Numbered from the stretch's first letter, positions 5,850 to 32,630 are shown. The stretch is 38,419 nt of DNA from Gemmatimonadota bacterium (GCA_031372565.1 JANMLN010000026.1:1-38419), one strand, 5' to 3'. The notes: generated by a model from the letters alone, not told the origin. Numbers and translations: made by a program.

Positions 5850-7475
5850 ATGCTGGTCCCCAAGCTCGTCACGACCCTCAAGGACTACGACCGAGCGCAG
5901 TTCATCGCCGATCTTGGCGCGGGGCTGATCGTGGGCGTGGTGGCGCTGCCGCTCGCGATCGCCTTCGGCATCGCGAGCGGGGTGACGCCGTCGGCTGGCC
6001 TCTGGACCGCGATCGTCGCCGGCTTCCTCATCTCCGCGCTCGGGGGTTCGCGCGTGCAGATCGGCGGCCCCACGGGCGCCTTCGTGGTGATCGTGGCCGG
6101 CATCGTCGAGAAGTACGGCATGGGCGGCTTGGCCACCGCCACGCTCATGGCCGGCGTGATGCTCGTGGCGTTCGGACTGCTGCGCTTCGGCAAGGTCATC
6201 CAGTTCTTCCCGCGCCCCGTGATCACCGGGTTCACGAGCGGCATCGCGGTGCTGATCGCGAGCGGACAAGTGAAGGACGCGCTCGGGCTGCGCATGGGGA
6301 CGCCGCCCGTGGCGTTCATCGAGAAGTGGCAGTCGTACGCGGCGCACCTGGGTGATGCGACGCCTGCGGCGATGCTGGTCTGTGCTGGCACCCTGCTCGT
6401 GCTCATCGTCTGGCCCAGGCTTTCGACCAAGGTGCCGGGGCCGTTCGTGGCGCTCGTGGCTGCCACGGTTGCCGTGAAGCTCATGGAGCTGCCCGTGGAC
6501 ACGATCGGCAGCCGCTTTGGTGCGCTGCCCACGGGATGGCCGAGCGCGCACGTGCCAGACCTGTCGATTGCCACGATGCGGGCGATGGTCGCACCGGCCT
6601 TCACCATCGCGCTGCTCGGCGGCATCGAGTCGCTGCTCTCGGCCGTCGTGGCCGATGGCATGATCGGAGGGCGGCATCGGCCGAACATCGAGCTCGTGGC
6701 ACAGGGAGTCGCGAACATCGTATCGCCATTGGTCGGTGGCATTCCGGCGACGGGTGCCATCGCGCGCACGGCCACCAACGCGCGGAACGGCGGCCGCACG
6801 CCGGTGGCGGGGCTTGTGCACGCACTCACGCTGCTACTCATCACCCTCTTTGCCGGGCAGTGGGCCGCGCTGGTGCCGATGAGCGCGCTCGCGGCCATTC
6901 TGCTCATCGTGGCGTATCACATGAGCGAATGGCGCACGGTGCGCGCCGAGATGAAGGCGCCGAAGAGCGATGCGGCCGTGCTGCTGATCACGATGGGGCT
7001 GACCGTGATCGTTGATCTGACGGTCGCGATCCAGGTTGGCCTCGTGCTCGCGTCGCTGCTGTTTGTGCGACGCATGGCGGGTGCCTCGAGCATCACGCCG
7101 CTGGTGGACGATGACGAGGGTGGCGATGCACCTCTGCGCGCGCCTCTCCCGGACGGCGTACAAGTCTTCGCGATGTCAGGCCCGTTCTTCTTCGGTGCCG
7201 TCGAGCAGTTCAAGGAGACGATGCGGCAGGTGGCGCGCAGGCCGCGCGTGCTGATCCTGCAGATGCGTGACGTACCGGTGATCGATGCGACGGCGATGCA
7301 CGCGCTGCGCGAGGTGATCCGTCAGAGCACGAAGGACGGGACGCGCGTGATGCTCGCGGAGGTCGGCGGCCAGCCGATGGAGGCGATGCAGCGCTCGGGG
7401 TTGGTGGAGGCGCTGGGGGCGGAGGCGTTCGCGCCGAGTCTGGAGTTCGCGATCGCGGCCGCGTCGTCGTCCTGA
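5850..7475 (+). CDS. SulP-family inorganic anion transporter with C-terminal STAS domain
   Basis: 'ADLGAGLIVGVVALPLAIAFGIASG', 'QIGGPTGAF', 'ESLLSAVVAD' and STAS 'GPFFFG...VPVIDATA'. Start is ATG 5850. Confidence 0.92.
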   Translation: MLVPKLVTTLKDYDRAQFIADLGAGLIVGVVALPLAIAFGIASGVTPSAGLWTAIVAGFLISALGGSRVQIGGPTGAFVVIVAGIVEKYGMGGLATATLMAGVMLVAFGLLRFGKVIQFFPRPVITGFTSGIAVLIASGQVKDALGLRMGTPPVAFIEKWQSYAAHLGDATPAAMLVCAGTLLVLIVWPRLSTKVPGPFVALVAATVAVKLMELPVDTIGSRFGALPTGWPSAHVPDLSIATMRAMVAPAFTIALLGGIESLLSAVVADGMIGGRHRPNIELVAQGVANIVSPLVGGIPATGAIARTATNARNGGRTPVAGLVHALTLLLITLFAGQWAALVPMSALAAILLIVAYHMSEWRTVRAEMKAPKSDAAVLLITMGLTVIVDLTVAIQVGLVLASLLFVRRMAGASSITPLVDDDEGGDAPLRAPLPDGVQVFAMSGPFFFGAVEQFKETMRQVARRPRVLILQMRDVPVIDATAMHALREVIRQSTKDGTRVMLAEVGGQPMEAMQRSGLVEALGAEAFAPSLEFAIAAASSS

Positions 7476-7556
7476 GCGGCGCTGTCGTCCTGAGCGAAGC
7501 GAAGGACCTGCTGTTCGCGCAACCGCACAAGCAGGTCCTTCGCTTCGCTCAGGACG
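7466..7556. repeat. REP-like locus A: partial copy plus inverted doublet
   Basis: GTCGTCCTGAGCG at 7466-7478 contains the SulP stop. Forward copy 7484-7512 and reverse copy 7530-7556 form a perfect 27-bp inverted repeat, and the reverse copy contains the solA stop. Confidence 0.95.
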
Positions 7557-8685
7557 TCAGGCGCGACAGCCCGAACGGCTCGATGTCGAACGCCGTCCCT
7601 CCATCGAGCAGCAGCTCCGCGCTCACCTCGCCGATCGCGCTCGCGAACTTGTAGCCGTGCCCCGAACACGGACTCGACACGAGCACCTGCGGATACTCCG
7701 GGTGATGGTCCAGCACGAAGTCGAGGTCCGGCGTGTTGGTGAAGCGGCACACCGCCATCTCGCGCATGGTGGCGGTGCGAATGGCCGGCAGCAGTTCACC
7801 GCACCGCTCGCGAATGAGCGCCAGGTCGGCGTCATCGGGCGTCTCGCGCACCGCGTTGCCGTCGATCGTGCGCTCCCCCTCGTGCATGACCGCCATCTTC
7901 ACGCCGCGCGCCAGCCGCGGAAAGCCGTATGTCATCTGCCCGGCCGCGTTGTCATAGGCCCAGATCGGACAGGACGGTGCGTCCCACTTCGCGTTGCCGA
8001 CATCGGGATCGAACCAGGCCAGCACCTGCCGCTCGACGGTGAGCGGGATGCGGAGTGACGCGACCAGCGGCGCGAGGTACGCGCCCACGCTCAGGCAGAG
8101 TTGGTCGGCGACGTAGGTGCCCTTCGCCGTCGTGACTCTCACGCCGTCGCCGTCGGGCGCCCAACGCAGGACCCCCTCGTCGAAGCGCAGGTCTGCTCCG
8201 TGCTGCCGCGCGAGCGCGTGATGCGCGGCGTTGCCCGCGTCCGGGTCAAGGTGGCCAGCGCGCGGATCGACGACACCGACGATCTGGTCGAGCGGCTTGA
8301 ACGCGGGGAACCGTGCGTGCATGTCGCGGGCATCGAGCACCTCGTACGGCAGGTTGTGCTCGCGCGCGCTGCGCAGCGTGCCCGTCACGATCTCGCTGTC
8401 CTTCGGTCCTGCCATCAGGCCGCCGGTAATCGTGAGGAGCGATGTGCCGGTCTGCTCCTCGAGTGACTCCCACAGCGCGTACGCACGCTGCACCAGCGGC
8501 ACGTACATCGGGTGCTCGAAGTACATCTCGCGGATGATGCGGCTGTCGCCGTGCGAGGAGCCGTGCGTGTGCCCCGGATGCCACCGTTCGAGCCCCAGCA
8601 CCTGCGCGCCGCGCAGTGCGCAGTGTGCGGCAGTCGCGCTCCCCATCGCGCCGAGTCCGGCGACGATCACATCGTAGCGTTCCAT
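7549..8685 (-). CDS. solA: N-methyl-L-tryptophan oxidase / monomeric sarcosine oxidase family flavoprotein
   Basis: 'GLGAMGSA' FAD motif, 'GSSHGDSRIIR', 'CRFTNTPD' (flavinylation Cys position) and 'CSGHGYKFAS'. The ORF-track N-terminal extension is repeat-derived. Confidence 0.88.
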   Translation of the reverse strand: MERYDVIVAGLGAMGSATAAHCALRGAQVLGLERWHPGHTHGSSHGDSRIIREMYFEHPMYVPLVQRAYALWESLEEQTGTSLLTITGGLMAGPKDSEIVTGTLRSAREHNLPYEVLDARDMHARFPAFKPLDQIVGVVDPRAGHLDPDAGNAAHHALARQHGADLRFDEGVLRWAPDGDGVRVTTAKGTYVADQLCLSVGAYLAPLVASLRIPLTVERQVLAWFDPDVGNAKWDAPSCPIWAYDNAAGQMTYGFPRLARGVKMAVMHEGERTIDGNAVRETPDDADLALIRERCGELLPAIRTATMREMAVCRFTNTPDLDFVLDHHPEYPQVLVSSPCSGHGYKFASAIGEVSAELLLDGGTAFDIEPFGLSRLTS

Positions 8686-8700
8686 CTTCGTTCTCCCGTT

Positions 8701-8770
8701 GTCGTCCTGAGCGCAGCGAAGGACCTGCTTGCGCAGTTCCACGGAGAAGCAGGTCCTTCGCTGCGCTCAG
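8701..8770. repeat. REP-like locus B: inverted doublet
   Basis: Forward copy 8701-8730. Reverse copy 8747-8770 is truncated at CTCAG, whose TCA is the stop of the 8767-9429 gene. Confidence 0.95.
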
Positions 8771-9429
8771 CGTGCCGTGCCGATACCCAACCGCCGCAGC
8801 GCATCCTCGAACCGCTGCAGCATCTTTCTCGACGGACCCTTCACCTGCACGTCCACGCCACCAAGGACCGCGAGCCCGGTCACGCGAATGAGCGGCGCGG
8901 TGGGATCATGCGTGCTCCGGTCGCGTCCACCCACGTCGAAGCCGCCGACGACACCGGCCCCCGTCACCTCGACCCGCACCCCCGGCGGAACGATCACCTC
9001 GACGCCTCCAAACGCGCACGTCACGTCGATCTCGCTCACACCGGCGCCAAAGCGCGCTTCGCGCAAGTCGATCGAGGCACCGCCGAGCATCGCGATGACC
9101 TTGAACCGGCGCGGCAACACCCAGCCGCCCTTCACCTCGAACCCGCCAAGCGCGGCGAGCATCGCGCTTCGCGGCGGCACCAGCTCGTCCGCGACGATGA
9201 GCGATGCCGTCGAATACCCGCTGCTCGGCGACAGCCCGGGCTCGAGGCCGGCGAGCGCACGCTCGAGCTCGGCCTGCGACGTCGCCTGATGCACCATCGC
9301 CATGCGGGCGTCGAGCGACTCGACCGTCAGCCGGTCGGCGACGAACATCGCCGAGAGCACCTCCGCGACCGCGCTGCGGTGGTCGTCGGAGATGGGAGTG
9401 CGCGGCAGAGAGTCCGGAGGAGACTTCAA
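8767..9429 (-). CDS. DUF1707 (SHOCT-like) + LiaF-like C-terminal domain protein, paralog A
   Basis: N-terminal 'SDDHRSAVAEVLSAMFVADRLTVESLDARM..AT..EL' matches the DUF1707 pattern; C-terminal 'GGASIDLREA..FGGVEVIVPPGVRV'. TTG start is uncertain. Confidence 0.8.
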   Translation of the reverse strand: MKSPPDSLPRTPISDDHRSAVAEVLSAMFVADRLTVESLDARMAMVHQATSQAELERALAGLEPGLSPSSGYSTASLIVADELVPPRSAMLAALGGFEVKGGWVLPRRFKVIAMLGGASIDLREARFGAGVSEIDVTCAFGGVEVIVPPGVRVEVTGAGVVGGFDVGGRDRSTHDPTAPLIRVTGLAVLGGVDVQVKGPSRKMLQRFEDALRRLGIGTAR

Positions 9430-9450
9430 CGGCGGGGGAGGAGGGGCGAG

Positions 9451-9560
9451 AAGCAGGTCCTTCGCTTTGCTCAGGACGACGGGGGGGGCGAGGGGCGAGA
9501 AGCAGGTCCTTCGCTTTGCTCAGGACGACGGGGGTGCAGTCCTTCGCTCTGCTCAGGATG
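9451..9560 (-). repeat. REP-like locus C: three direct copies in reverse orientation
   Basis: AAGCAGGTCCTTCGCTTTGCTCAGGACGAC at 9451-9480 and 9500-9529; a degenerate third copy at ~9536-9560. Confidence 0.93.
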
Positions 9561-9581
9561 GCTGGAGCGCGAAAAATGACG

Positions 9582-10253
9582 TCAAGGCGTGGGCGTCTTG
9601 CCGCGTTCGATTGCCGCCCGCTGCATGGCTTCGTCGAACCGCTTGAGCATCTTCTTGGTCGGGCCGCGCATCTTGACCTCCACCCCGCCCATGATCGCGA
9701 TACCACGCACCCGGAGCACCGGTGCCGCGGGATCGAAGGCACTGGCGTCGACTCCCGACATGCCGAAGCCGCCCATCATGGCGGTGCCGAGCAGCTCGAC
9801 ACGAACGCCGGGCGGCACGGTGATCTCGACACCGCCCCACATGGCGAAGATGTGGATCTCGCTCACACCGGCGCCGAAGCGCGCCTCTCGCAGGTCGAGC
9901 TCGCCGCCGCCCATGAACGCGTTGACTTGCATCTCGCGCGGCAAGACCCAGCTCCCCTTGTTCTGGAAGCCCCCCATGAACGCCATCGCCACGCTGCGGC
10001 GCGGCACCATCTGGTCGGGCACGATGATGGCCGGCTGCCCCGGGTCCGTCTCGAGGCGCGGTGCTGCGTCGAGTCCCACCAGCGCTCCCTCGAGCTCCGC
10101 GAGCGTCGTGGCTTCGTACACCAGCGCCATGCGCACATCCAGCGTGTCGACCGTAAGCCGGTCGTTGGCGAAGTGTGCCGAGAGCGCCTGCGCGACGGCG
10201 TCGCGTTTGGCGTCGGTGACGAGCGAGGGGAGCGGGCGGTCGGGAGGAGTCAT
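9582..10253 (-). CDS. DUF1707 + LiaF-like domain protein, paralog B
   Basis: Collinear with 8767-9429, sharing DRLTV, DLREARFGAGVSEI and VPPGVRVE blocks. Confidence 0.85.
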   Translation of the reverse strand: MTPPDRPLPSLVTDAKRDAVAQALSAHFANDRLTVDTLDVRMALVYEATTLAELEGALVGLDAAPRLETDPGQPAIIVPDQMVPRRSVAMAFMGGFQNKGSWVLPREMQVNAFMGGGELDLREARFGAGVSEIHIFAMWGGVEITVPPGVRVELLGTAMMGGFGMSGVDASAFDPAAPVLRVRGIAIMGGVEVKMRGPTKKMLKRFDEAMQRAAIERGKTPTP

Positions 10254-10293: not shown

Positions 10294-10323
10294 AAGCAGG
10301 TCCTTCGCTTCGCTCAGGACGAC
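10294..10323 (-). repeat. REP-like locus D: single copy
   Basis: AAGCAGGTCCTTCGCTTCGCTCAGGACGAC, 7 nt past the glutathione peroxidase stop. Confidence 0.95.
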
Positions 10324-10330
10324 ATGGCGC

Positions 10331-10813
10331 TCACGCCGACAGCGCACTCACCACATCAGCTGTCATCGACTCCGGGGTGTCGCCGGAACCGTACCGCTTG
10401 AGGACAGCGCCATCTCGCCCAACGAGAAACTTGGTGAAATTCCACTTGATCGCTTCCGTACCGAGGATCCCTGGGCGCGCGGCCTTGAGGAGCGCGAACA
10501 GCGGATGCGTCCCCGGACCGTTGACTTCGATCTTGGCGAACATCGGGAACGTCACGTCGTACGTGGCCGAACAGAACGTCACGATCTCGGCTTCCGTCCC
10601 AGGCTCCTGATGGCCGAACTGGTCACAGGGAAAGCCGAGCACGGCCAAGCCGGCGTCCTTGTGCGCACGGTAGAGCGCCTCGAGCCCGCGATACTGCGGG
10701 GTGTAGCCACACTTGCTGGCCACATTCACGATCAGCATCACCTTGCCTTGGTACGGTGCCAGTGTCGAGGCCGTGCCGCCGATCGTCGTGACGGGAAGTG
10801 TGTACAGGCTCAT
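10331..10813 (-). CDS. Glutathione peroxidase family protein (Cys-type, BtuE-like)
   Basis: 'NVASKCGYTPQY', 'LGFPCDQFGHQEPG' and 'IKWNFTKFLV' motifs. An alternative start at 10846 is possible. Confidence 0.93.
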   Translation of the reverse strand: MSLYTLPVTTIGGTASTLAPYQGKVMLIVNVASKCGYTPQYRGLEALYRAHKDAGLAVLGFPCDQFGHQEPGTEAEIVTFCSATYDVTFPMFAKIEVNGPGTHPLFALLKAARPGILGTEAIKWNFTKFLVGRDGAVLKRYGSGDTPESMTADVVSALSA

Positions 10814-22814: not shown

Positions 22815-24122
22815 ATGCTGCCACGTCTCGCCCGATTGCTCGCTGCGTTCGGTCTGCTCTTGTCGGTTGTCCCGGTCCTGGCAGCGCAGGAGAAGTCGCC
22901 CCGGCGAATCGCCGTGAAGGCGGCGCGCCTGATCGACGGAACCGGAGCCGCCCCGATCGCGAACGTGGTCGTGTTGATCGAAGGGGACCGGATCACGGCG
23001 GTCGGGTCCGGCATGACCATCCCGAAGGGGACGGAAGTCGTGGACCTCGGCAGTGCGACCCTCATGCCGGGCTTCATCGACTGCCACACGCACGTGACGG
23101 GGCAGCCCGGCGACTTCTACGACGATCTCTTCCGCAAGAGCCCGATCGATTTCGCGGTCACGTCGCACCTGTACGCACGCCGCACCCTTGACGCCGGCTT
23201 CACGACGATCCGGAATGCCGGTGCCTCCGAGTACGTGGATGTCGCGTTGCGCAACGCGATCACGCGGGGCGACATCGCGGGCCCGCGCATCATCGCGGCG
23301 GCGCACGCCATCGGTGCCACTGGCGGACACGGCGACCTGAACGGCATGAGCCCCTACCTGCGTTTCGAGGGAACCTCGGGCATCGCCGACGGGCCGGATG
23401 CGATTCGCAAGCAGGTACGCACGCAGATCAAGTACGGCGCCGACGTGATCAAGATGATCGCGACCGCCGGGGTGCTGTCGGAGGAGGAATCGGTCGGCGC
23501 ACCCCAGTTCTCGCTCGACGAGATGAAGACCATGGTGGACGAAGCCGCCATGTGGGGCCGCAAGGTGATGGCGCATGCGCACGGCACCGAAGGGATCAAG
23601 CGCGCCATCCGTGCGGGCGTCGCCTCGATCGAGCATGGCTCGCTCATCGACGACGAGGGGATCGAGATGGCGAAGGCGAAGGGCACCTTCCTCGTGATGG
23701 ATGTCTACAACGACGACTACATCCTGGCCGAGTACGGACGGCTGGGGTACCCGGAGAAGATCCTCGCCAAGGAGCGCATGATCGGCCGCCTCCAGCGCGA
23801 GAACTTCCGCAAGGCGGTCAAGGCTGGGGTGAAGATGGCGTTCGGCACCGACGCCGGCGTGTACCCGCACGGCTGGAACGCGAAGCAGTTCGCGACGCAG
23901 GTCGAGTGGGGGATGACGCCGATGCAGGCGATCGTGTCGGCCACGTCGAGCGCGGCCGAACTGCTCGGGCAGAGCGACCAGTTGGGGACGGTGGCCGCCG
24001 GCCGATGGGCGGACCTGGTGGCCGTAAGCGGCGATCCGCTGGCGAACATCAAGGAGCTGGAGAAGGTGCAGTTCGTGATGAAGGGCGGCGTGGTGTACAA
24101 GCAGGGCGGCGTGCCCAAGTAG
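22815..24122 (+). CDS. Secreted metal-dependent amidohydrolase (Xaa-Pro dipeptidase-like), paralog of 2763-4100
   Basis: Signal peptide; 'PGFIDCHTH', 'GADVIK', 'AHAHG', 'SIEHG' and 'FGTDAG' motifs. The real start is 22815, inside the long ORF call. Confidence 0.9.
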   Translation: MLPRLARLLAAFGLLLSVVPVLAAQEKSPRRIAVKAARLIDGTGAAPIANVVVLIEGDRITAVGSGMTIPKGTEVVDLGSATLMPGFIDCHTHVTGQPGDFYDDLFRKSPIDFAVTSHLYARRTLDAGFTTIRNAGASEYVDVALRNAITRGDIAGPRIIAAAHAIGATGGHGDLNGMSPYLRFEGTSGIADGPDAIRKQVRTQIKYGADVIKMIATAGVLSEEESVGAPQFSLDEMKTMVDEAAMWGRKVMAHAHGTEGIKRAIRAGVASIEHGSLIDDEGIEMAKAKGTFLVMDVYNDDYILAEYGRLGYPEKILAKERMIGRLQRENFRKAVKAGVKMAFGTDAGVYPHGWNAKQFATQVEWGMTPMQAIVSATSSAAELLGQSDQLGTVAAGRWADLVAVSGDPLANIKELEKVQFVMKGGVVYKQGGVPK

Positions 24123-24148
24123 TCGTCCTGAGCGCAGCGAAGGACCTG
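24122..24148 (+). repeat. REP-like locus E: single, 3'-truncated copy
   Basis: GTCGTCCTGAGCGCAGCGAAGGACCTG; its first G is the last base of the upstream TAG stop. Confidence 0.93.
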
Positions 24149-24295
24149 TTTGTTGCCGTCTATGCCGCGTCGGTGCTCGCCGGCTTTCACGCATTCGTGA
24201 CGCTCTACGAGGAACCGGCACTCGAGGCGCGCTTTGGCGACGGCTACCGCGCCTATCGGTCGCGCGTACCGCGCTGGCTTCTGCCCCGTCGCTGA
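24149..24295 (+). pseudogene. 3' remnant of an isoprenylcysteine carboxylmethyltransferase/PEMT-family gene
   Basis: Translates to 'FVAVYAASVLAGFHAFVTLYEEPALEARFGDGYRAYRSRVPRWLLPRR*', the characteristic EE-x2-L-x3-FG-x2-Y-x2-Y-x3-VPRW C-terminus. There is no 5' portion, and it begins at the end of repeat E. Confidence 0.78.
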
Positions 24296-25609: not shown

Positions 25610-27375
25610 GCTTCCTCGACAGGCCGCCGCGCTTCCTGTTCTTCACGGGCAAGGGCGGCGTCGGCAAGACATCGCTCGCCTGCGCGTCCGCTGTGCAGCT
25701 GGCCGACGCGGGCCGTCGTGTCCTGCTCGTCAGTACCGATCCCGCGTCCAATGTCGGCCAGGTCTTTGGCGTCACCATCGGCAACCAGGTCACCGCAGTG
25801 CCGGGGGTCGCCAACCTGTCGGCACTCGAGATTGACCCGCCTGCGGCAGCGCAGGCCTACCGCGACCGCATCGTTGGCCCGGTGCGTGGCGTTCTGCCGG
25901 ACGACGTCATCCGCGGCATGGAGGAACAGCTCTCGGGCGCCTGCACCACCGAGATCGCGGCGTTCGATGAGTTCACGGCGCTGCTGACGGACGGGCCCCT
26001 CACCACGGGATTCGATCACGTCATCTTCGATACCGCACCAACGGGGCACACGATTCGCATGCTGCAGCTGCCGGGCGCGTGGACCGACTTCCTCGAGCAC
26101 GGAAAGGGCGACGCGTCCTGCCTGGGGCCGCTGGCTGGCCTCGAGAAGCAACGCGCGCAGTACCACGATGCCGTGGATGCGCTCGCGGACCCCGCGCGCA
26201 CGCGCCTCGTGTTGGTCGCGCGCGCCCAGCGGTCGAGCCTCCAGGAAGTCACGCGCACACAGCATGAACTCGATGCCATCGGCATCGCAAACCAGTACCT
26301 CGTGGTGAACGGCGTCCTGTCGGCGAAGGACGCGCAGGGTGACCCGCTCGCCACCGCCATCCGTGCGCGTGAAGATGCGGCCCTGCGCGACCTCCCCGAC
26401 GCACTCCGCGCGCTGCCGCACGACACCATCTCGCTCAAGCCGGTGAACCTCATCGGGCTCGCCGCCCTGCGCTCCCTGCTGGGGCCAGAGGTGCCGTCAG
26501 CGCGACAGGAGGTCGCGCACCTTCCGATGATCGATGTCGATCCTCTGGCCACGCTCATCGATGCCATCGAGGCCGATGGCAAGGGTCTCGTGATGCTCAT
26601 GGGCAAGGGCGGCGTGGGCAAGACGACGCTCGCTGCGGCGATCGCCGTCGAACTCGCCCATCGCGGACACGACGTGCATTTGACGACGTCGGATCCGGCC
26701 GCGCACCTCGCCGAAACGCTGCACGGCGCTGTCGCCCGCCTCACGGTGAGCCGCATCGACCCGGTGGCCGAAACCGAGCGGTATCGCGCCAGCATCATGG
26801 CCAGCAAGGGAGCAAAGCTGGACGACGCCGGCCGCGCGATGCTCGCGGAAGACCTGCGTTCGCCGTGCACGGAGGAGATTGCCGTCTTCCGCGCCTTCGC
26901 GGGCGCCATCCACGAGGCGGCGCGACAGTTCGTCGTGATGGACACCGCCCCCACGGGCCACACACTGCTCTTGCTCGACGCGACGGGGGCATACCACCGC
27001 GAGATGGTGCGTCAGGTGGGTGATCGCGCGGTGCGGTTCAAGACGCCGATGATGCAGTTGCAGGACCCCGTGCTGACCAAGGTCATCATCGTCACCCTGG
27101 CCGAGACGACGCCGGTGCTCGAGGCCGCCGCGCTGCAAGGCGACTTGCGCCGGGCCGGTATCGAACCGTGGGCGTGGGTGATCAACAACAGCCTCGCCCT
27201 CGCGGCACCGGTCGCGTCACTGCTGCGGCGGCGTGCGCAGGCAGAAGTTGCTCAGTTCGCGCGCGTTCGAACGCTGTGCGCCGCACGCATCGCGGCGATC
27301 CCGTTGCTCGCCGACGAACCGGTGGGAGAAGAGCGGCTGCTGCAGCTCGTGCACCCGGCAACCCTGTCGTCCTGA
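25606..27375 (+). CDS. arsA: Arsenical pump-driving ATPase ArsA
   Basis: Two 'GKGGVGKT' and two 'DTAPTGH' motifs; metalloid Cys in 'SGACTTE', 'ASCLGP' and 'SPCTEE'; GTGA overlap with arsD. Confidence 0.95.
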   Translation: MSFLDRPPRFLFFTGKGGVGKTSLACASAVQLADAGRRVLLVSTDPASNVGQVFGVTIGNQVTAVPGVANLSALEIDPPAAAQAYRDRIVGPVRGVLPDDVIRGMEEQLSGACTTEIAAFDEFTALLTDGPLTTGFDHVIFDTAPTGHTIRMLQLPGAWTDFLEHGKGDASCLGPLAGLEKQRAQYHDAVDALADPARTRLVLVARAQRSSLQEVTRTQHELDAIGIANQYLVVNGVLSAKDAQGDPLATAIRAREDAALRDLPDALRALPHDTISLKPVNLIGLAALRSLLGPEVPSARQEVAHLPMIDVDPLATLIDAIEADGKGLVMLMGKGGVGKTTLAAAIAVELAHRGHDVHLTTSDPAAHLAETLHGAVARLTVSRIDPVAETERYRASIMASKGAKLDDAGRAMLAEDLRSPCTEEIAVFRAFAGAIHEAARQFVVMDTAPTGHTLLLLDATGAYHREMVRQVGDRAVRFKTPMMQLQDPVLTKVIIVTLAETTPVLEAAALQGDLRRAGIEPWAWVINNSLALAAPVASLLRRRAQAEVAQFARVRTLCAARIAAIPLLADEPVGEERLLQLVHPATLSS

Positions 27376-27492
27376 GCAGCCCTGTCGTCCTGAGCAACGC
27401 TGTCGTCCTGAGCAGCGCGAAGGACCTGCTTTTCGCGAACGACACAAGCAGGTCCTTCGCTGCGCTCAGGACGACAACAGGCTCAGGACGAC
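27364..27492. repeat. REP-like locus F: 18-bp tandem partial copies, inverted doublet and a further partial copy
   Basis: CTGTCGTCCTGAGCA occurs three times at an 18-bp period, and the third extends to a full copy (27402-27431). Reverse copy at 27446-27475; partial GCTCAGGACGAC at 27481-27492. Contains both the arsA and MIP-gene stops. Confidence 0.95.
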
Positions 27493-28211: not shown

Positions 28212-28221
28212 GCCGTCTCCC

Positions 28222-28299
28222 GTCGTCCTGAGCGAAGCGAAGGACCTGCTTCTGCATGTCCTGCGAGACAAGCAGTTCCTTCGCTTCGCTCAGGATGAC
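28222..28299. repeat. REP-like locus G: inverted doublet
   Basis: Forward copy 28222-28251; reverse copy 28270-28299 with two substitutions. Confidence 0.95.
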
Positions 28300-28309
28300 G
28301 CATGAAGGG

Positions 28310-29950
28310 TTATCGCGCCGAGTCGAATGTCTTGCGCACCGCCTTCGTGCACGCGGGCCACTGCTGCGGCTGCCCGGTGCGCTGATCGTTCGGCAGCGGA
28401 TCCAGCCGATCGCGCGGCATCGGGTTCGGATCGTTGGCCGCCTGCGCTGCCAGCATGGCCACCAGCGTGGCGTTGTTCACCAGATCCTCCGCCACCAGCT
28501 TGTCGAACGTGTCGCGATTGGTGTGCCACGTCGTCCAGCTGTAATCCCAACCCAGCGCACCCAGACCGAACGCCGGTGCACCGTAGCACGCAAAGCTCGC
28601 GTTGTCACTGCCGCCATTCGCCGGCGCACTCGGTGGCGACAGCCGGATCCACTTCGTGAGGTCGCTCGGCATCTCGCGCAGCCACGCGTCCAACCGCGCC
28701 GCCGTGCCCGGCAGCGCGCCCGGCCCCATGACGACCACGCGTCCCGTGCCGTTGTCCTGGTTGAAGAGGGCATAGAGCCCTTGGACCACTTCCGGGTGAT
28801 CCTCGCTGTACGCGCGGGAGCCATTCAGCCCCTGCTCCTCCCCCTGCCAGTGCCCGACACGAATCGTCCGCTTGGGCTGGAACCCGATCGCCTTGAGGAT
28901 GCGCAGCGCCTCCATCATCACCGTGGTGCCCGTGCCGTTGTCCGTCGCACCACTCGACCCGTCCCACGAGTCGAAGTGCGCCGACAGCACGATGAACTCG
29001 TCCGGCTTCTCCGATCCCTTGATCTCGGCGATCGTGTTGAACACCGGCTTGTCGCCCAGAAACTCGCTCTCGGCCGTGATGCGCACGCGCGGCTTCTGCC
29101 CCTTCTCCGCCAGTCGCGCCAACAACCCGTAGTCCTCGCAGCTCACGTCGTAGGTGGGCAGCTGCTGGCGCCACGAGCCGAAGATCTTGTCGATCCCCGG
29201 ATAGCGCGACCAGTTGTGCGCGAGCACGGCCACCGCGCCAGCATCCTTGAGCTTGACCTGGATGGCGGCGGGCGCCGTTCCGAACGCCGCGAGCCGCGTG
29301 CGCCAGCTGGCCGTGAGGGCGTCCTGCTCCTTCGCGTTGCGCGCCTGTGATTCCGGCGTACCGAACTCGGTCCACTGCGCCGCGCTGCGACACGAGAGCG
29401 TCGGCGCGGTCGTGAGGACCGCCTTGCCCTTCACCGACTTGAGCCACTCGGCGGCCGCCGTCGAGTCGGCGAGCTCCGGCACCATGATCACGTCGGCATC
29501 GACCGGCTTGCCCTTGGTCCCGGGGCTCCACGCCAGCATCATCCCCTCAAGCGAGCGGATGCGAGGCGCAATCAGGTCGATGTGCGAGACGCCACGGCGC
29601 CAGCCATTCCACGTGCCGTACTCCTCGCGCTTGGCGGCAATCCCCCATCCCTTGTACTTGGCGATCGCCCAGTCGCTCGCGAGCGTTGCGGCTGGCGAGC
29701 CTGTCAGGCGCGGCCCGACGACGTCGACCAGCTCCTGCGCCAGTGACATGGCCTGCGACCGCTGCATCCCCTCGGCCCACACCTGCTGCAGCGTCGGGTC
29801 CGAGGGCGGGGTCGTGCGGACGTACGCGGGCGCGGGGCTTACCGGCAGGGACTGCGTGGCGGGCGGACCACCGGCCGCGGCGCCCTGTGGACGCTGCGCC
29901 GCTGCGGGCGCGGCAAGAAGGGCGACAAGAGCCAAGGGCGACACACGCAT
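28310..29950 (-). CDS. Secreted M28-family metallopeptidase (carboxypeptidase Q-like)
   Basis: Signal peptide; 'GPRLTGSP', 'SAHFDSWD', 'GATDNGTG', 'GEEQGLNGS', 'GSDNASF' and 'WHTNRDT' motifs. Confidence 0.9.
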   Translation of the reverse strand: MRVSPLALVALLAAPAAAQRPQGAAAGGPPATQSLPVSPAPAYVRTTPPSDPTLQQVWAEGMQRSQAMSLAQELVDVVGPRLTGSPAATLASDWAIAKYKGWGIAAKREEYGTWNGWRRGVSHIDLIAPRIRSLEGMMLAWSPGTKGKPVDADVIMVPELADSTAAAEWLKSVKGKAVLTTAPTLSCRSAAQWTEFGTPESQARNAKEQDALTASWRTRLAAFGTAPAAIQVKLKDAGAVAVLAHNWSRYPGIDKIFGSWRQQLPTYDVSCEDYGLLARLAEKGQKPRVRITAESEFLGDKPVFNTIAEIKGSEKPDEFIVLSAHFDSWDGSSGATDNGTGTTVMMEALRILKAIGFQPKRTIRVGHWQGEEQGLNGSRAYSEDHPEVVQGLYALFNQDNGTGRVVVMGPGALPGTAARLDAWLREMPSDLTKWIRLSPPSAPANGGSDNASFACYGAPAFGLGALGWDYSWTTWHTNRDTFDKLVAEDLVNNATLVAMLAAQAANDPNPMPRDRLDPLPNDQRTGQPQQWPACTKAVRKTFDSAR

Positions 29951-30051
29951 GCGCAGAACCTCCGACAGGGATGGCCGCCCGAGACTGACGCTCGTTGGCA
30001 GCGCGGCAAAGGTACGCGCTAGCTTACAGGGTTGTCACCCCAACCCCCGTT

Positions 30052-30226
30052 GTCGTCCTGAGCGCAGCGAAGGACCTGCTTCCCCCCGTCGTCCTGAGCG
30101 CAGCGAAGGACCTGCTTCTCCCCGTCGTCCTGAGCGCAGCGAAGGACCTGCTTCTCCCCGTCGTCCTGAGAACCGCGAAGGACCTGCTTCTCCCCCGTCG
30201 TCCTGAGCGCAGCGAAGGACCTGCTT
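30052..30226 (+). repeat. REP-like locus H: five-copy direct tandem array
   Basis: Copies start at 30052, 30088, 30124, 30160 and 30197 (period 36,36,36,37) with C-rich 6-7 nt linkers; copy 4 has a variant core (GAGAACCGC). Confidence 0.97.
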
Positions 30227-30286
30227 CTCCCGGATGTCACAAGCACATCCTCACCGTTCGCTGCAGACGTCCACCGCCGAGCCCCC

Positions 30287-31516
30287 ATGCGCCGCTTCTC
30301 CGCCCTGCTCGCCCTCGCGCTTCCCGCTACCATGCCCGCCCAGCGCCCCGCCACCGCCGCCGACTCCCTCGTCGCGCGTGCTCGCGAAATCCACAAGCAC
30401 GTGGTCACCATCGACACGCACGTGGACATTCCGTACCAGTACGGCACCGAGTTCGCCGATCCGGGCCGTCGCGACACCTTCCGCGTCGACTACCCGAAGA
30501 TGAAAGAGGGCGGTCTCGACGCCGTCTTCTTCATCGTGTACGTCGCGCAGGGGGCACGCGCGGGCGAGCAGGCGGAAACGGCACGGGAACTCGCGCTCAC
30601 GAAGTTCGCGGCCATTCGCCGCGCCGTGGCCACCTACAAGGACCGGGTCGCGCTGGCGGAAAAGGCCGACGACGTCGCGAAGATCGCGCGCACGGGCAAG
30701 CTCGTGGCCATGATCGGGATCGAGAATGGCTACGTGATCGGCAAGGATCTGGGGCTGCTCGCGAAGTATCACAAGCTGGGCGCGCGCTACATGACGCTCA
30801 CGCACAACGGCACCAACGAGATCGGCGACCCCGCGATCCATCTGAGCGGTGACACCAAGAACGAATGGGGTGGTCTCTCCCCCTTCGGGCGGCAGGTGGT
30901 GGCCGAGATGAACCGAGTCGGCATCATGGTCGACATCTCGCACAACGGCAAGGCGACCATGATGCAGGCGACCGCGTTGTCGAAGGCGCCGGTCATCGCG
31001 TCGCACTCGGGGATCAAGGCGCTCAACGACCATCCGCGCAACGTCGACGACGAGCAGCTCGACGCGATCAAGCAGTCCGGTGGTGTGGTGCAGGTCGTCG
31101 CACTCGGCGGCTTTCTCAAGCGCACGCCCCCCGAGCGTGAACCGGCGATCCTCGCGCTGGCCACGAAGGTGGGCCTCACGACCGCGCGCGACTCGGCCAA
31201 GCTGACCGTCGCACAGCGGGCGGCTTGGCGCGCCGGCATGACCGAGATCGACGCCAAGTACGGACCCGCGTCGGTCAAGGACCTGGTCGATCACATCGAC
31301 TATGCCGTCAAGCGCATCGGTATCGACCATGTCGGGATCAGCTCCGACTTCGACGGCGGCGGCGGCATCGTCGGCTGGCAGGACGCGAGCGAGACGTTCA
31401 ACGTGACGCTCGAGCTGGTGAAGCGCGGCTACTCGGCCAGCGACATCGAGAAGATCTGGGGCGGCAACCTGATTCGCGTGTGGAAGCGGGTGGAGGCGGT
31501 GGCCAAGTCGTCCTGA
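30287..31516 (+). CDS. Secreted membrane-dipeptidase family (M19) peptidase
   Basis: Signal peptide; 'IDTHVD', 'GIENG', 'RYMTLTH', 'MVDISH', 'IASHS', 'HPRNVDD', 'GISSDFDGG' and 'IWGGN' motifs. Confidence 0.93.
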   Translation: MRRFSALLALALPATMPAQRPATAADSLVARAREIHKHVVTIDTHVDIPYQYGTEFADPGRRDTFRVDYPKMKEGGLDAVFFIVYVAQGARAGEQAETARELALTKFAAIRRAVATYKDRVALAEKADDVAKIARTGKLVAMIGIENGYVIGKDLGLLAKYHKLGARYMTLTHNGTNEIGDPAIHLSGDTKNEWGGLSPFGRQVVAEMNRVGIMVDISHNGKATMMQATALSKAPVIASHSGIKALNDHPRNVDDEQLDAIKQSGGVVQVVALGGFLKRTPPEREPAILALATKVGLTTARDSAKLTVAQRAAWRAGMTEIDAKYGPASVKDLVDHIDYAVKRIGIDHVGISSDFDGGGGIVGWQDASETFNVTLELVKRGYSASDIEKIWGGNLIRVWKRVEAVAKSS

Positions 31517-31646
31517 GCGAAGCGAAGGACCTGCTTCTGTTGTTGGTGAAGAGCACAAGCAGGTCCTTCGCTGTGCGCAGGACGACAACACAAGCAGGTC
31601 CTTCGCTTCGCTCAGGACGACGCAGTCAGTCGCTCGGCTCAGGATG
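31507..31646. repeat. REP-like locus I: one forward, two reverse and one partial copy
   Basis: Forward copy 31507-31536 contains the dipeptidase stop. Reverse copies at 31557-31586 and 31592-31621. Partial GCTCAGGATG at 31637-31646 contains the next gene's stop. Confidence 0.95.
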
Positions 31647-32094
31647 CCTTGACCCTGAGCCCACGCACCATCCCACGCATCGAGTGCGGCGTCTTCGCCG
31701 AGTCCGGCAGCGTGCAGATCAGCGCATAGTCGCGTCCCGGCAGCAGATCGACGGCCAGCGCCGCTTCCACGACCTCACCGGCATCGGCATAGAGCAACCC
31801 GTCGCCGGGGTCGTAGAGTTTCTCGACGTCATCACCGCGCAGCTCCATGCGAAGCACGCTGTCGAGCGGAACGCCCAGCTTCACGCGCGCGATCGCCACC
31901 TCGTGCGCCACACGGCCCGTGTTCCGGAAGTGGAAGCGTGCCGGCCCGGCCGGCAGCGAGTCGGGCGAGACCAAGGCGTACTCGGTACCAGTCACCTCGA
32001 CGTCGCGCGAAGCGGGTGCGCCAGCGCACGCAGCGAGCGCAGAGGACGCGATCGCGCCGCTGAGGATACGGACTCGATGCGCTCGTCGCATCAT
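31639..32094 (-). CDS. Cupredoxin-like lipoprotein 2 (putative type-1 copper site)
   Basis: Lipobox 'ALAAC'; 'FRNTGRVAHE' and 'LICTLPDSAKTPHSMRGM' give H...C-x9-H-x4-M. Confidence 0.72.
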   Translation of the reverse strand: MMRRAHRVRILSGAIASSALAACAGAPASRDVEVTGTEYALVSPDSLPAGPARFHFRNTGRVAHEVAIARVKLGVPLDSVLRMELRGDDVEKLYDPGDGLLYADAGEVVEAALAVDLLPGRDYALICTLPDSAKTPHSMRGMVRGLRVKAS

Positions 32095-32546
32095 CGCACC
32101 GTCAGGATCTTGAACATCCCCAACACCTGGTGCTTGGGGGCACTCGACGAGTCACGGAACTGGCACCAGAGGGCGTAACGCTTGCCGCGTTCGAAGGTGA
32201 CGCTCAAGCGCACCGGGTTGTCGGTCTGCCCTGGCGCCGCGAACAAGACTGCGCTGCCCGTGGCGCGCAGATTGCGCATCGAGCGGCCATGCATGAGCGA
32301 GTCGGCCGCCTCGGCGCTGGACACTCCATCGCGCAGCCGCGCGAGCGCGAGCTCGTGGCGCACGAGGCCGCGCGAGGAGAAGCTCACGAGCGATGCGCCC
32401 GCGTCCACGGTATCGCGCACCGTGAAGGCATAGTCGGTGCCGATGACGTCGAGCGTGCGGAGGGTGCTTGGCGTCGCGCAGGAACCGAGCGCGAGCGCGC
32501 TCAGGATCAAGGGGTGACGGAGCCGATCGGTGAGCTGGGAAGGCAT
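32091..32546 (-). CDS. Cupredoxin-like lipoprotein 1 (putative type-1 copper site)
   Basis: Lipobox 'ALGSC'; 'GLVRHE' and 'LWCQFRDSSSAPKHQVLGM' give H...C-x10-H-x4-M; ATGA overlap with its paralog. Confidence 0.72.
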   Translation of the reverse strand: MPSQLTDRLRHPLILSALALGSCATPSTLRTLDVIGTDYAFTVRDTVDAGASLVSFSSRGLVRHELALARLRDGVSSAEAADSLMHGRSMRNLRATGSAVLFAAPGQTDNPVRLSVTFERGKRYALWCQFRDSSSAPKHQVLGMFKILTVR

Positions 32547-32589
32547 GTCGTACGATGGGGTGAGTCGTGGCGTGGCGGTAGGGGGAGAA

Positions 32590-32630
32590 AAGCAGGTCCT
32601 TCGCTTCGCTCAGGACGACAACTCGCTCAG
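32590..32630 (-). repeat. REP-like locus J: single copy plus a short partial
   Basis: AAGCAGGTCCTTCGCTTCGCTCAGGACGAC at 32590-32619, then CGCTCAG at 32624-32630 containing the dehydrogenase stop. Confidence 0.93.

What the first reader, a model, noticed from the sequence alone, without database searches (positions are those of the whole stretch)
7466..32629. The repeat supplies the stop codon of up to eight genes and imprints a shared Ser-Ser-stop C-terminus
Seen: the TGA within (GTCGTC)CTGAGC terminates SulP (7473-7475), SolA (7551-7549), DUF1707-A (8769-8767), ArsA (27373-27375), the MIP channel (27485-27483) and the M19 dipeptidase (31514-31516). Weaker partial copies terminate cupredoxin 2 (31641-31639) and the PQQ dehydrogenase (32629-32627). 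Four unrelated proteins therefore end in SS* (AASSS, ATLSS, ARLSS, AKSS). A ninth gene's TAG shares its last base with copy E. At loci A, F and I both convergent genes end in repeat sequence. Inference: either the element targets or overwrites stop-codon regions, which gives harmless insertion sites, or deletions ending at repeats trim gene tails and are rescued by the built-in TGA.
Basis: partly seen in the sequence, partly recalled or inferred. Interest (0 to 1): 0.78.

Follow-up and report, generated by a model that had tools for sequence, protein, structure and literature searches.

The report
Hairpin repeat that ends genes
A small hairpin-forming DNA repeat that has multiplied in this sediment bacterium sits on the ends of genes, and its built-in TGA has become the stop codon of about fifty of them, which is a well-supported new example of something already known from other bacterial repeats.

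Summary
All eight claimed stops lie where stated, and a ninth (glutathione peroxidase, 10333-10331) was missed. The repeat is a REP-type unit of 30-36 nt: a YGTC tag, then a hairpin GTCCT-GA-GC-GNA-GC-GA-AGGAC, then a CTGCTT tail. The genome holds 477 units, as singles, heads-out inverted pairs (48, against 1 heads-in), tandem arrays and head-only stubs.

Genome-wide, 50 of 3664 predicted genes end on the repeat's TGA, and 35 of them end in SS*. Only about 6 genes read into a unit in the two other sense frames (29 of 35 full-unit cases, p = 2e-9).

In 12 of 12 repeat-ended genes compared, orthologs without the repeat at that site have different tails, so native ends were overwritten. Protein length changed by -12 to +2 residues.

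Another 34 genes keep their own stop, with the unit starting exactly 1 nt after it. Ordinary gene-end hairpins in this genome are not placed like that, and this is unexplained.

I found no RAYT transposase and no target-site duplication. GTAG REPs are already reported to supply TAG stops (Di Nocera 2013), so this is a new member of a known kind. The hairpin core also occurs in many other phyla.

The parts
7466..7477 (+). Head-only stub. Its TGA (7473-7475) is the stop of the SulP/STAS transporter (tail AAASSS*).
7484..7558 (.). Heads-out inverted pair: + unit 7484-7513, - unit 7529-7558. The TGA of the - unit (7551-7549) is the stop of the DAO/SolA-like oxidase (tail RLTS*).
   Evidence: (folds at -77.6 kcal/mol, z = -10.9)
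8701..8776 (.). Inverted pair inserted between DUF1707A and DAO: + unit 8701-8730, - unit 8747-8776 with a degenerate head. Its TGA (8769-8767) ends DUF1707A (tail GTAR*). Congeners have a stop-start overlap at this site.
9451..9562 (-). Three tandem units (9451-9480, 9500-9529, degenerate 9533-9562), about 20 nt downstream of the DUF1707B stop. They do not supply a stop here. In congener G001 a unit does end the DUF1707B ortholog (PPLSS*).
10294..10340 (-). Unit 10294-10323 plus head stub 10329-10340. The stub's TGA (10333-10331) ends the glutathione peroxidase gene (tail ALSA*).
24122..24151 (+). Single unit whose first G is the last base of the amidohydrolase TAG (24120-24122). That TAG is in frame with the unit's TGA (TAG TCG TCC TGA).
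27366..27492 (.). Nested palindrome: stubs 27366-27377 and 27384-27395, + unit 27402-27431, - unit 27446-27475, stub 27481-27492. It supplies the ArsA stop (27373-27375, tail ATLSS*) and the MIP stop (27485-27483, tail ARLSS*).
   Evidence: (-91.2 kcal/mol, z = -9.6)
28222..28299 (.). Inverted pair between the M28 peptidase stop (TAA 28312-28310, 10-nt gap) and the MIP start. It supplies no stop. In G001 the site is empty and in G003 it is filled.
30052..30232 (+). Five tandem units with a period of 36-37 nt, in the divergent spacer upstream of the M19 gene.
31507..31648 (.). + unit 31507-31536, whose TGA (31514-31516) ends M19 (tail VAKSS*); - units 31557-31586 and 31592-31621; degenerate - stub 31637-31648, whose TGA (31641-31639) ends the small ORF 31639-32094 (tail VKAS*).
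   Evidence: -89.1 kcal/mol, z = -11.7
32590..32639 (-). Unit 32590-32619 plus a degenerate head stub with a 3-nt insertion (about 32625-32639). The stub's TGA (32629-32627) ends the GSDH/PQQ dehydrogenase (tail VASSG*).

Best explanation
The repeat is a REP-type, selfish or semi-domesticated hairpin element. It has an unpaired YGTC tag, a 9-position stem with two tandem G.A mismatches, a GNA triloop and a CTGCTT(CTCCCC) tail.

It has multiplied in part of one genus, most of all in this genome. It lives at gene 3' ends, head towards the gene, often as heads-out inverted pairs.

New copies, or later small deletions, often reach into the last codons of a gene. Only one of the six reading frames through the unit holds a stop (TCG TCC TGA). 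Genes hit in that frame get a clean [L/P/V]-S-S-stop end close to their native length and survive. Hits in other frames would add long junk tails and are mostly purged. The stop supply is therefore a by-product of the hairpin's structural TGA, which is later kept by selection on the gene.

Shown here:
- the anatomy of the unit
- copy numbers across relatives
- the frame bias
- replacement of native tails
- independent events in congeners
- retention of a stop after the unit decays

Inferred:
- that the elements are mobile (the enzyme is unknown)
- that selection, not targeting, causes the frame bias
- that the transcribed hairpin acts as an mRNA 3'-end structure
For: Anatomy.
- The 5' edge is sharp at G0, and position -1 is a pyrimidine in 89% of units (T 267, C 152 of 470 units tabulated).
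- Stem positions 3 and 23 covary: G-C 396, A-T 40.
- Loop base N is free: A 221, C 209.
- ViennaRNA predicts the unit hairpin as (((((..((...))..))))), and the inverted pairs fold at -78 to -91 kcal/mol, z about -10 to -12.

Distribution.
- There are 477 units in 275 clusters; 48 are '><' pairs against 1 '<>'.
- Units occupy 64 of 433 convergent spacers, 115 of 2680 tandem spacers and 26 of 449 divergent spacers.
- Exact-core counts are 330 in G000, 52, 70 and 53 in three congeners, 1 and 0 in two congeners, and 0 in 18 of 19 other genera of the family.

Stops.
- 50 of 3664 genes end at unit positions 7-9: 29 on full units and 21 on head stubs. 48 of the 50 are at least 100 aa with a good coding score, and 35 end in SS*. 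Only 56 genes in the whole genome end in SS*.
- About 6 genes read into a unit in the other sense frames. Binomial test, 29 of 35: p = 2.3e-9.

Orthologs.
- 12 of 12 repeat-ended genes have different tails where the ortholog lacks the repeat. For M19: VAKSS* here, VAKQMQTMK* in two congeners, VAKEMQ.../VAREIQ... in more distant relatives.
- Length change is -12 to +2 aa.
- Events also occur at other genes in congeners: DUF1707B in G001 (PPLSS* against PPPR*), and a C182 ortholog in G001 (MSS*).
- In relatives' loci, 10 of 43 gene-adjacent units supply the stop.
- The cup2 stop in G001 is TAA inside a decayed unit, and one G000 unit has TAA at positions 7-9 that serves as a stop.

The TGA is structural. 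It is as conserved (437 of 477 units) in units that stop nothing as in those that do.

Precedent. [quoted passage not shown]
Against: - No mobilising enzyme was found. PF01797 is absent from G000 (95.9% complete) and from all 5 congeners.
- No direct insertion event or empty-site polymorphism was seen in the three sediment runs that hold the window.
- Selection alone does not explain why 34 genes have the unit exactly 1 nt after their own stop, when gaps of 0 and 2 nt have 6 and 12.
- The far side of those clusters usually has room: 26-168 nt in 10 of 15 convergent cases.
- Native gene-end hairpins in unit-free spacers peak 13-30 nt after the stop and are not flush.
- Stop-supplying units are no older than the rest (15 of 29 perfect against 199 of 390). 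A slow process of deletion followed by rescue is therefore not obviously favoured.
- Gene calls come from my own simple codon-score caller. It over-extends some starts and mis-called at least one window gene.
Confidence: 0.65

Rival explanations
1. Active docking. The insertion machinery, or a process linked to translation or termination, places the head of the element on or directly behind real stop codons. Flush placement and TGA supply would then be outcomes of targeting, not of selection after random insertion.
For: - There is a spike at exactly one position: 34 genes have stop, 1 nt, then head, against 6 at 0 nt and 12 at 2 nt.
- 34 of the 39 stop triplets found at that offset are real gene stops, so a bare T-R-R DNA target is unlikely.
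- All three stop codons are used, roughly as in the genome: TGA 24, TAG 6, TAA 4.
- The same gene ends are occupied in several congeners but with different junctions, TAG overlapping the head G in one genome and TGA-Y-head in another.
- The far side of the cluster usually has room.
- Native hairpins are not flush.
- Earlier notes of this scan describe hairpin repeats flush on stop codons in giant viruses (not tested here).
Against: - No known mechanism reads stop codons in DNA.
- Copies of the same core in other phyla show no stops at -4 to -2 (at most 1 at each of these offsets, among 145 instances).
- Many units lie 5-60 nt from the stop or face gene starts.
- No enzyme was found.
Confidence: 0.25
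2. Deletion and compaction. Elements first land downstream of the native stop. Later small deletions pull them flush, or fuse the reading frame to the head. Only fusions in frame with the TGA survive.
For: - M19: two congeners have ...AAG TAG followed by a degenerate head in frame, and G000 lacks exactly those 21 nt, giving AAG TCG TCC TGA.
- One C149 gene has the unit 21 nt after TAG in G003, but flush in G000 and G001, with the same right-hand boundary.
- The TAG-overlap class (6 genes) is in frame with the internal TGA, so one mutation or an in-frame deletion gives xSS*.
Against: - Native, presumably old, gene-end hairpins are not compacted onto stops.
- Stop-supplying and flush units are as consensus-like as the others.
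- The DUF1707A-DAO and DUF1707B(G001) cases are insertions into a former stop-start overlap, with no spacer to delete.
Confidence: 0.2
3. Adaptive stop-in-hairpin. The TGA inside the stem, or the SS tail, is selected because it tunes termination, read-through, tmRNA tagging or mRNA decay of the host gene.
For: - In E. coli, REPs within 15 nt of a stop codon stall ribosomes and lower translation. I saw this only as cited in PMC12306157 (passages read); I did not read the original paper.
- In the inverted pairs, both stops sit in the base of a duplex of -78 to -91 kcal/mol.
Against: - The genes concerned are functionally unrelated.
- The TGA is equally conserved in units that end no gene.
- The ends differ between close relatives.
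- No expression data exist for this organism (see Tried and rejected).
Confidence: 0.08
4. Chance or annotation artefact. TGA is the commonest stop in a 68% G+C genome, and long open frames simply happen to end in the repeat.
For: TGA is 58% of predicted stops. Spurious long ORFs are common at this G+C content.
Against: - The genes have Pfam domains that reach to their ends and orthologs with different tails.
- The frame bias has p = 2e-9.
- The motif count exceeds all 100 shuffles.
Confidence: 0.01

Closest known systems
CGTC-tagged REP superfamily (Di Nocera, De Gregorio and Rocco 2013, PMC3733652; abstract, sections 6 and 17 and passages read)
   Same: - An unpaired CGTC/TGTC tag at one end. 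Here position -1 is T (57%) or C (32%), followed by GTC. In other phyla the base before GTC is T in 110 and C in 21 of 147 instances.
- A stem of 9 positions that starts with A-T in the widespread form.
- Inverted dimers predominate.
- Location near the 3' ends of convergent and unidirectional genes.
- No associated transposase.
- Occasional intragenic copies.
   Different: - The loop is a 3-nt GNA triloop, not 4-5 nt.
- The stem carries two tandem G.A mismatches.
- The tail is CT(G)..., not CCA.
- In G000 the first stem pair is G-C.
- The phyla seen here (Acidobacteriota, Gemmatimonadota, Chloroflexota, Bacillota and others) go beyond the five that the paper lists.
- I could not see the paper's Figure 2 consensus sequences.
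GTAG REPs and REPIN doublets with RAYT transposases (Pseudomonas, enterobacteria)
   Same: - A short, high-copy hairpin.
- Inverted doublets that fold into long hairpins.
- Placement within 20 bp of gene 3' ends.
- Termini reported to supply the stop codon (TAG) of flanking ORFs.
   Different: - There is no GTAG tag.
- No RAYT/Y1 transposase was found in this genome or in five congeners.
- The stop comes from inside the stem (TGA), not from the tag.
MIRUs of mycobacteria
   Same: Small mobile repeats whose insertion is made harmless by meshing with the start and stop codons of neighbouring genes (passage in PMC12548453).
   Different: MIRUs carry a short ORF and couple to start codons within operons. 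They are 40-100-bp tandem units, not hairpins with a tag.
Stop-codon-docking hairpin repeats of giant viruses
   Same: GC-rich hairpin plus tail, head flush on stop codons, fast turnover, and outer bases sometimes serving as the stop.
   Different: The host is viral, where a 'hairpin rule' for mRNA 3' ends gives a functional reason. The sequences are unrelated. These are AI notes that I did not test.

Membership tests
REP (repetitive extragenic palindromes), general | Short (20-40 bp) imperfect palindrome in high copy number | tested here: met
   The unit is 30-36 nt, with 477 copies in 4.44 Mb. The hairpin is predicted and positions 3/23 covary.
REP (repetitive extragenic palindromes), general | Mostly extragenic, near 3' ends, between convergent or unidirectional genes; inverted dimers common | tested here: met
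   389 of 477 units are intergenic by my gene calls, and most 'inside' cases are over-extended starts. Units occupy 15% of convergent, 4% of tandem and 6% of divergent spacers. There are 48 '><' pairs.
CGTC-tagged REP superfamily (Di Nocera 2013) | Unpaired CGTC (or TGTC/CCTC) tag at one end | tested here: met
   In G000, position -1 is T (267) or C (152) of 470, followed by an invariant GTC. Elsewhere, 136 of 147 instances have GTC, preceded by T (110) or C (21).
CGTC-tagged REP superfamily (Di Nocera 2013) | Stem of 8-9 bp whose first two positions are complementary A and T | tested here: inconclusive
   The stem has 9 positions, but 2 are G.A mismatches. The first pair is A-T in 101 of 147 instances from other genomes, but G-C in 396 of 477 units in G000.
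CGTC-tagged REP superfamily (Di Nocera 2013) | Loop of 4-5 nt and a 3-nt CCA tail | tested here: not met
   The loop is G-N-A (3 nt). The tail is CTG/CTC in G000 and TCT/CCT in other genomes.
CGTC-tagged REP superfamily (Di Nocera 2013) | No dedicated transposase gene flanked by the repeats | tested here: met
   No PF01797 hit in G000 or in 5 congeners. None of 10 ORFs flanked by heads-out units is a transposase. 6 Y1_Tnp loci of order-level relatives have no motif within about 1.5 kb.
REPIN/RAYT system | RAYT (Y1 HUH transposase, PF01797) present in the genome and flanked by REPs; GTAG tag | tested here: not met
   0 hits in 6 of 6 genomes of the genus, while the control genomes give hits. 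The tag is YGTC, not GTAG. G000 is 95.9% complete, so absence is not proven.
MITE (terminal inverted repeats plus target-site duplication) | Direct duplication of the target at both ends | tested here: not met
   Among 48 heads-out pairs, 46 have 0-2 nt of matching flank. The two others (3 nt and 5 nt) lie in repeat-rich flanks.
Canonical intrinsic terminator | GC-rich hairpin followed at once by a T-run | tested here: not met
   The scan finds 1 site in 7000-11000 and 1 in 24000-33000, no more than in shuffles, and both use an alternative weak stem.
Rfam RNA families | Match at the gathering score | tested here: not met
   0 matches at the gathering score over the window. Below threshold there are only generic long-hairpin (miRNA precursor) hits.

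The most novel reading that the evidence does not exclude
The element does not merely survive at gene ends. It is placed there, head first and to the nucleotide, by a process that recognises real stop codons and is linked to translation or termination. Its invariant GAGCG-N-AGCGA centre, identical in at least a dozen phyla while the outer stem covaries, would be the binding site of a still unidentified conserved protein that moves or uses it.
Probability: 0.18. Interest if true: 0.8.

Novelty: new member of a known kind. Interest (0 to 1): 0.45.

Why it matters
About 1.4% of this organism's proteins carry a C-terminus and a stop codon written by a repeat, and these differ between species of one genus. 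Annotation pipelines and ortholog alignments should therefore expect repeat-made [L/P/V]-S-S ends.

The result also gives a clean, quantified case of the idea that a selfish hairpin is tolerated where its own sequence repairs the damage it does.

Two features are not covered by the REP literature I could read and would be worth a specialist's time:
- the exact 1-nt docking behind native stops
- the occurrence of the same 19-27-nt core, with its tag, in many phyla without a known transposase

Tried and rejected
- **Rfam.** Nothing at the gathering score. Only generic miRNA-like long-hairpin hits below threshold.
- **RAYT/Y1 transposase.** None in G000 or in the five congeners. It is present in 10 of the 35 relatives outside the genus, but 6 fetched loci have no motif nearby.
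- **Genes flanked by heads-out units.** 10 ORFs: PIN, RHH, DinB, PALP, MscL, subtilase, YceI, a weak carboxypeptidase-regulatory-like domain hit, and two without a family. None is a transposase.
- **Target-site duplication.** None.
- **Flanks that extend the palindrome.** The single strong case (C151) is a contig that folds back on itself at its end, an assembly artefact. All other pairs look random.
- **'No room' model for flush docking.** Unit-free spacers are short: median 37 nt for convergent and 23 nt for tandem pairs. But the far side of flush clusters usually has room.
- **General placement rule for gene-end hairpins.** Native hairpins peak 13-30 nt after the stop.
- **Age difference between stop-supplying units and the rest.** None.
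- **Frame use and flush stops in other phyla, from 60-nt flanks.** No signal. The flanks are too short for gene calling.
- **TGA enrichment among flush stops.** 24 of 34 against 58% genome-wide, not significant by my estimate.
- **Sequencing runs.** No RNA holder is listed. Contigs of 4 DNA runs break at the repeats. The joints seen link different repeat copies, and no empty-site variant was seen.
- **Literature by sequence string.** Three strings gave 0 or unrelated papers.
- **The search of earlier findings by sequence.** One unrelated hit.
- **Not done.** Taxon of the genome. It is probably Gemmatimonadaceae, because the identical repeat variant occurs in a MAG with that label (L002). This is an inference only.

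Full report
**Setting.** The window is contig C143 of a 4.44-Mb assembly with 201 contigs, 68.4% G+C and 95.9% completeness. Three DNA runs labelled freshwater sediment metagenome hold it. The identical repeat variant occurs in a MAG labelled Gemmatimonadaceae (L002). The genome probably belongs there, but I did not test this.

**The observation.** GTCGTCCTGAGC with up to 2 mismatches occurs 31 times in the window. The mean of 100 shuffles is 8.3 and the largest is 18.

The ORF table and the sequence show that the TGA inside this word is the first in-frame stop of these genes:
- SulP (7473-7475)
- a DAO/SolA-like oxidase (7551-7549)
- DUF1707/LiaF-like A (8769-8767)
- ArsA (27373-27375)
- MIP (27485-27483)
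- M19 dipeptidase (31514-31516)
- a small ORF (31641-31639, degenerate head)
- GSDH/PQQ dehydrogenase (32629-32627, in a head stub with a 3-nt insertion)

Pfam confirms the families, except for 'cupredoxin', which gave no hit. The amidohydrolase TAG shares its G with the unit at 24122.

The glutathione peroxidase gene ends at 10333-10331, in the stub GTCGGCGTGAGC.

**Anatomy.** Aligning all 477 genomic units (up to 6 substitutions against the 30-mer) gives these features:
- The 5' edge is sharp at G0, preceded by a pyrimidine (T 57%, C 32%).
- Positions 0-29 are 86-100% conserved, except loop base 13 (A 221, C 209).
- A weaker C/T-rich tail runs to about position +36.
- The unit reads Y GTC | GTCCT GA GC GNA GC GA AGGAC | CTGCTT.
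- ViennaRNA predicts this hairpin.
- Positions 3 and 23 covary: G-C 396, A-T 40.

That GCGNAGC mini-hairpins and tandem sheared G.A pairs are unusually stable is recalled knowledge, not a tool result. The nearest-neighbour energy of a single unit is not exceptional (z = -0.1 to -1.1).

The T of the TGA closes the outer stem, and its G and A form the two G.A mismatches. The stop is therefore a structural part of the hairpin. It is present in 437 of 477 units, whether or not they end a gene.

Read directly from the sequence, the six frames through the unit give VVLSEAKDLL, SS*, RPERSEGPA, KQVLRFAQDD, SRSFASLRTT and AGPSLRSGR. Only one frame has a stop.

**Arrangement.** The 477 units form 275 clusters:
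- 143 singles
- 48 heads-out inverted pairs, against 1 heads-in pair
- tandem arrays
- 59 clusters at contig edges (the repeats break the assembly)

In addition, 75 head-only stubs lie mostly 17-18 nt upstream of a full unit. The pairs fold at -78 to -91 kcal/mol and have no target-site duplication. Units occupy 15% of convergent spacers, 4% of tandem spacers and 6% of divergent spacers.

**Genome-wide test.** I built a simple gene caller from codon log-odds trained on long high-GC3 ORFs, with greedy selection. It gives 3763 genes and 90% coding density. It over-extends some starts through the open VVLS and KQVLRF frames, and it mis-called the amidohydrolase region. Gene 3' ends are simply first in-frame stops, so they are robust.

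Main results:
- 50 of 3664 genes with a stop end at unit positions 7-9: 29 in full units and 21 in head stubs. 48 of the 50 are at least 100 aa with a score of at least 40.
- 35 of them end in SS*, out of only 56 SS* genes in the whole genome. The third-last residue is mostly L, P, V or S, as the Y at -1 and C/T at -2 dictate.
- Eight of the 50 lie in this window, or nine with the indel-bearing GSDH stub. The window is a hot spot.
- About six genes read into a unit in the two other sense frames: C102, C11, C48, and the ambiguous C201, C40 and C95.
- 29 of 35 in one frame gives p = 2.3e-9.

Random insertion into a 90%-coding genome would create many lethal in-frame stops. The frame comparison is the fair control.

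**Orthologs.** Five congeners were searched with window or contig DNA, or with protein. Exact-core counts are as follows:

| Genomes | Exact-core count |
|---|---|
| G000 | 330 |
| G001, G003, G005 | 52, 70, 53 |
| G002, G004 | 1, 0 |
| 19 other genera of the family | 0 in 18, 1 in one |
| Three order-level relatives | 3, 4, 15 |

For all 12 repeat-ended genes I could compare, orthologs lacking the repeat at that site end differently. The 12 genes are SulP, DAO, DUF1707A, GSHPx, ArsA, MIP, M19, the small ORF, GSDH, and three on C85 and C48. Examples:
- M19: VAKSS* here, VAKQMQTMK* in G001 and G003, and VAKEMQRNASE*, VAREIQAGR* and others further away.
- MIP: ARLSS* here, against KMVLAA*, SVLGG* and AVLG*.
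- GSDH: VASSG* here, against VTRAR* and VARAR*.

Protein length changes by -12 to +2 residues, often by 0 or 1. The last two to six codons are replaced rather than merely extended.

- **Insertion.** G001 and G003 have DUF1707A and DAO joined by an ATGA/GTGA stop-start overlap. G000 has a 76-nt inverted pair there. The pair's TGA ends the upstream gene, and the ribosome-binding site of the downstream gene lies beyond the far arm. In G001, not in G000, the same has happened to DUF1707B (PPLSS* against PPPR*).
- **Deletion.** G001 and G003 have M19 ...AAG TAG followed in frame by a degenerate head. G000 lacks exactly those 21 nt.

Old shared cases decay but keep a stop. GSHPx ends in LSA*, LST* and LSS* in three genomes. 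The small ORF's stop in G001 is TAA inside a decayed unit.

In the relatives' loci I hold, 10 of 43 gene-adjacent units supply the stop and 7 overlap a TAG. These genomes are kin and the loci were fetched by similarity, so this is replication, not independent statistics.

**Flush docking, unexplained.** Among the 211 genes with a same-sense unit within 300 nt downstream of the stop (or overlapping it), stop positions relative to the head are as follows:

| Position of the stop | Genes |
|---|---|
| On the unit's own TGA | 28-29 |
| Stop, then 1 nt, then head | 34 |
| 2 nt before the head | 12 |
| 0 nt before the head | 6 |
| TAG sharing the head's G | 6 |
| 17-18 nt class (mostly stub TGAs) | 26 |

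Further points on the flush genes:
- 34 of the 39 stop triplets at the 1-nt offset are real gene stops.
- These genes mostly keep their native end (5-6 of the 7 compared).
- All three stop codons are used: TGA 24, TAG 6, TAA 4.
- Heads face gene ends 209 times and tails 74 times. Tail ends are rarely flush.

Three controls argue that this is not trivial:
- The far side of flush clusters usually has room.
- Strong native hairpins at 2906 unit-free gene ends start mostly 13-30 nt after the stop (852 found, against 545 in a within-gene control).
- Stop-supplying and flush units are as consensus-like as the rest.

Against a family-wide docking mechanism, 145 instances of the core in other genomes have at most 1 stop at each of the offsets -4 to -2.

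I therefore keep selection after insertion or deletion as the main explanation of TGA use. The nucleotide-exact docking is open.

**Mobility.** The following point to a mobile or at least spreading element:
- The distribution within the genus is patchy.
- Sites differ between empty and filled. The M28-MIP spacer is empty in G001 and filled in G000 and G003. Several C149, C182 and C85 sites also differ.
- Half of all units are perfect copies.

The engine is unknown:
- No Y1/RAYT transposase was found in any of the six genomes of the genus.
- None of 10 ORFs flanked by heads-out units is a transposase.
- There is no target-site duplication.
- Contigs of the sediment runs break at the repeats and show no empty-site variant.

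**Comparison with what is known.** Di Nocera et al. 2013 (PMC3733652; abstract, sections 6 and 17 and passages read) sort REPs into GTAG- and CGTC-tagged superfamilies. They state the following:
- Most REPs lie within 20 bp of 3' ends.
- CGTC REPs (tag CGTC or TGTC, 8-9-bp stems starting with A-T, 4-5-nt loops, CCA tails, mostly head-to-head dimers) lack a dedicated transposase.

The present unit fits in its tag, stem length, dimer habit and lack of a transposase. It does not fit in its loop (3 nt) or its tail. I file it as a REP of CGTC-like architecture, not as one of their four families. I could not see their figure.

Two further comparisons:
- MIRUs mesh with start codons in a comparable harm-avoiding way (PMC12548453, one passage).
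- The E. coli work on REPs within 15 nt of stops stalling ribosomes I know only as cited in PMC12306157 (passages).

Searches for three strings of the repeat in the paper library found nothing relevant. Papers outside that library may describe it.

**The core elsewhere.** A rough chance expectation for 18 fixed bases in about 1.2e12 positions is under 20 (my arithmetic). Other features are also non-random:
- 136 of 147 instances carry GTC just upstream, preceded by T (110) or C (21).
- The first stem pair is A-T in 101 instances.
- Two-hit loci are '+-' in 17 cases and '++' in 3.

The record titles name Acidobacteriota, Gemmatimonadota, Chloroflexota, Verrucomicrobiota, Bacteroidota (Hymenobacter isolates), Omnitrophota, Planctomycetota, Bacillota, Patescibacteria, Nitrospirales, Bdellovibrionales, and Alpha- and Gammaproteobacteria. 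An invariant centre with a covarying outer stem suggests recognition by a protein. That is an inference.

**Verdict.** The phenomenon of a REP supplying stop codons is in print for another REP class, so this is a new member of a known kind. It carries two open points: the exact docking behind stops, and the pan-phylum core without a known enzyme.

One unpublished genome (G012) contributed only a distant M19 tail and zero counts.

Noticed in passing
loci L001-L127 (public genome records): The 19-nt core TCCTGAGCGNAGCGAAGGA, with a T/C-GTC tag just upstream, occurs in genomes labelled with at least a dozen phyla. It is mostly found as singles or heads-out pairs (17 '+-' against 3 '++'). The centre is invariant while the first stem pair varies (A-T 101, A.C 34, G-C 5).
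   Followed up: partly
window 27366-27492; genome-wide: Head-only stubs (12 nt) repeat with a 17-18-nt period in front of full units, sometimes symmetrically on both sides of an inverted pair, which gives nested palindromes. There are 75 such stubs genome-wide. Their origin is unknown: it could be an excision footprint, an internal 18-nt deletion or slippage.
   Followed up: partly
window 30052-30232: Five tandem units with a 36-37-nt period lie in the divergent spacer between the M28 peptidase and M19 dipeptidase genes, that is, in a promoter region rather than at a gene end.
   Followed up: no
G000 contig C151:4940-5169: The contig folds back on itself across an inverted pair (68 of 70 flank bases are palindromic, up to the contig end). 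This is an assembly artefact. It would mimic two convergent genes with identical tails.
   Followed up: yes
G000 contig C101:67878-68739: A PIN-domain and ribbon-helix-helix gene pair, which looks like a toxin-antitoxin module, is bracketed by heads-out units.
   Followed up: no
locus L256 (G001), ortholog of the G000 C85 gene that ends KSS*: In G001 the same gene reads through a decayed unit in the RPERS frame for about 11 codons and stops at the next head-like TGA. This is an example of the rarer other-frame outcome.
   Followed up: partly
G000 contigs C40:3560-3630, C35, C95 and C201: Units or pairs lie deep inside long open frames, with coding signal on both sides. These are either true in-frame intragenic insertions or two genes fused by the stop-free frames of the repeat.
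   Followed up: no
window 20208-24122: Two long overlapping ORFs lie on opposite strands (20208-22787 on - and 21702-24122 on +). Pfam supports the + frame only for its C-terminal amidohydrolase half, and my caller chose the - ORF. The true gene structure here is unclear.
   Followed up: no
window 9025-9200 and 9852-10027: The two neighbouring DUF1707/LiaF-like genes are paralogs (72% over 176 nt). Each has been hit at its 3' end by the repeat in a different species: A in G000, B in G001.
   Followed up: partly
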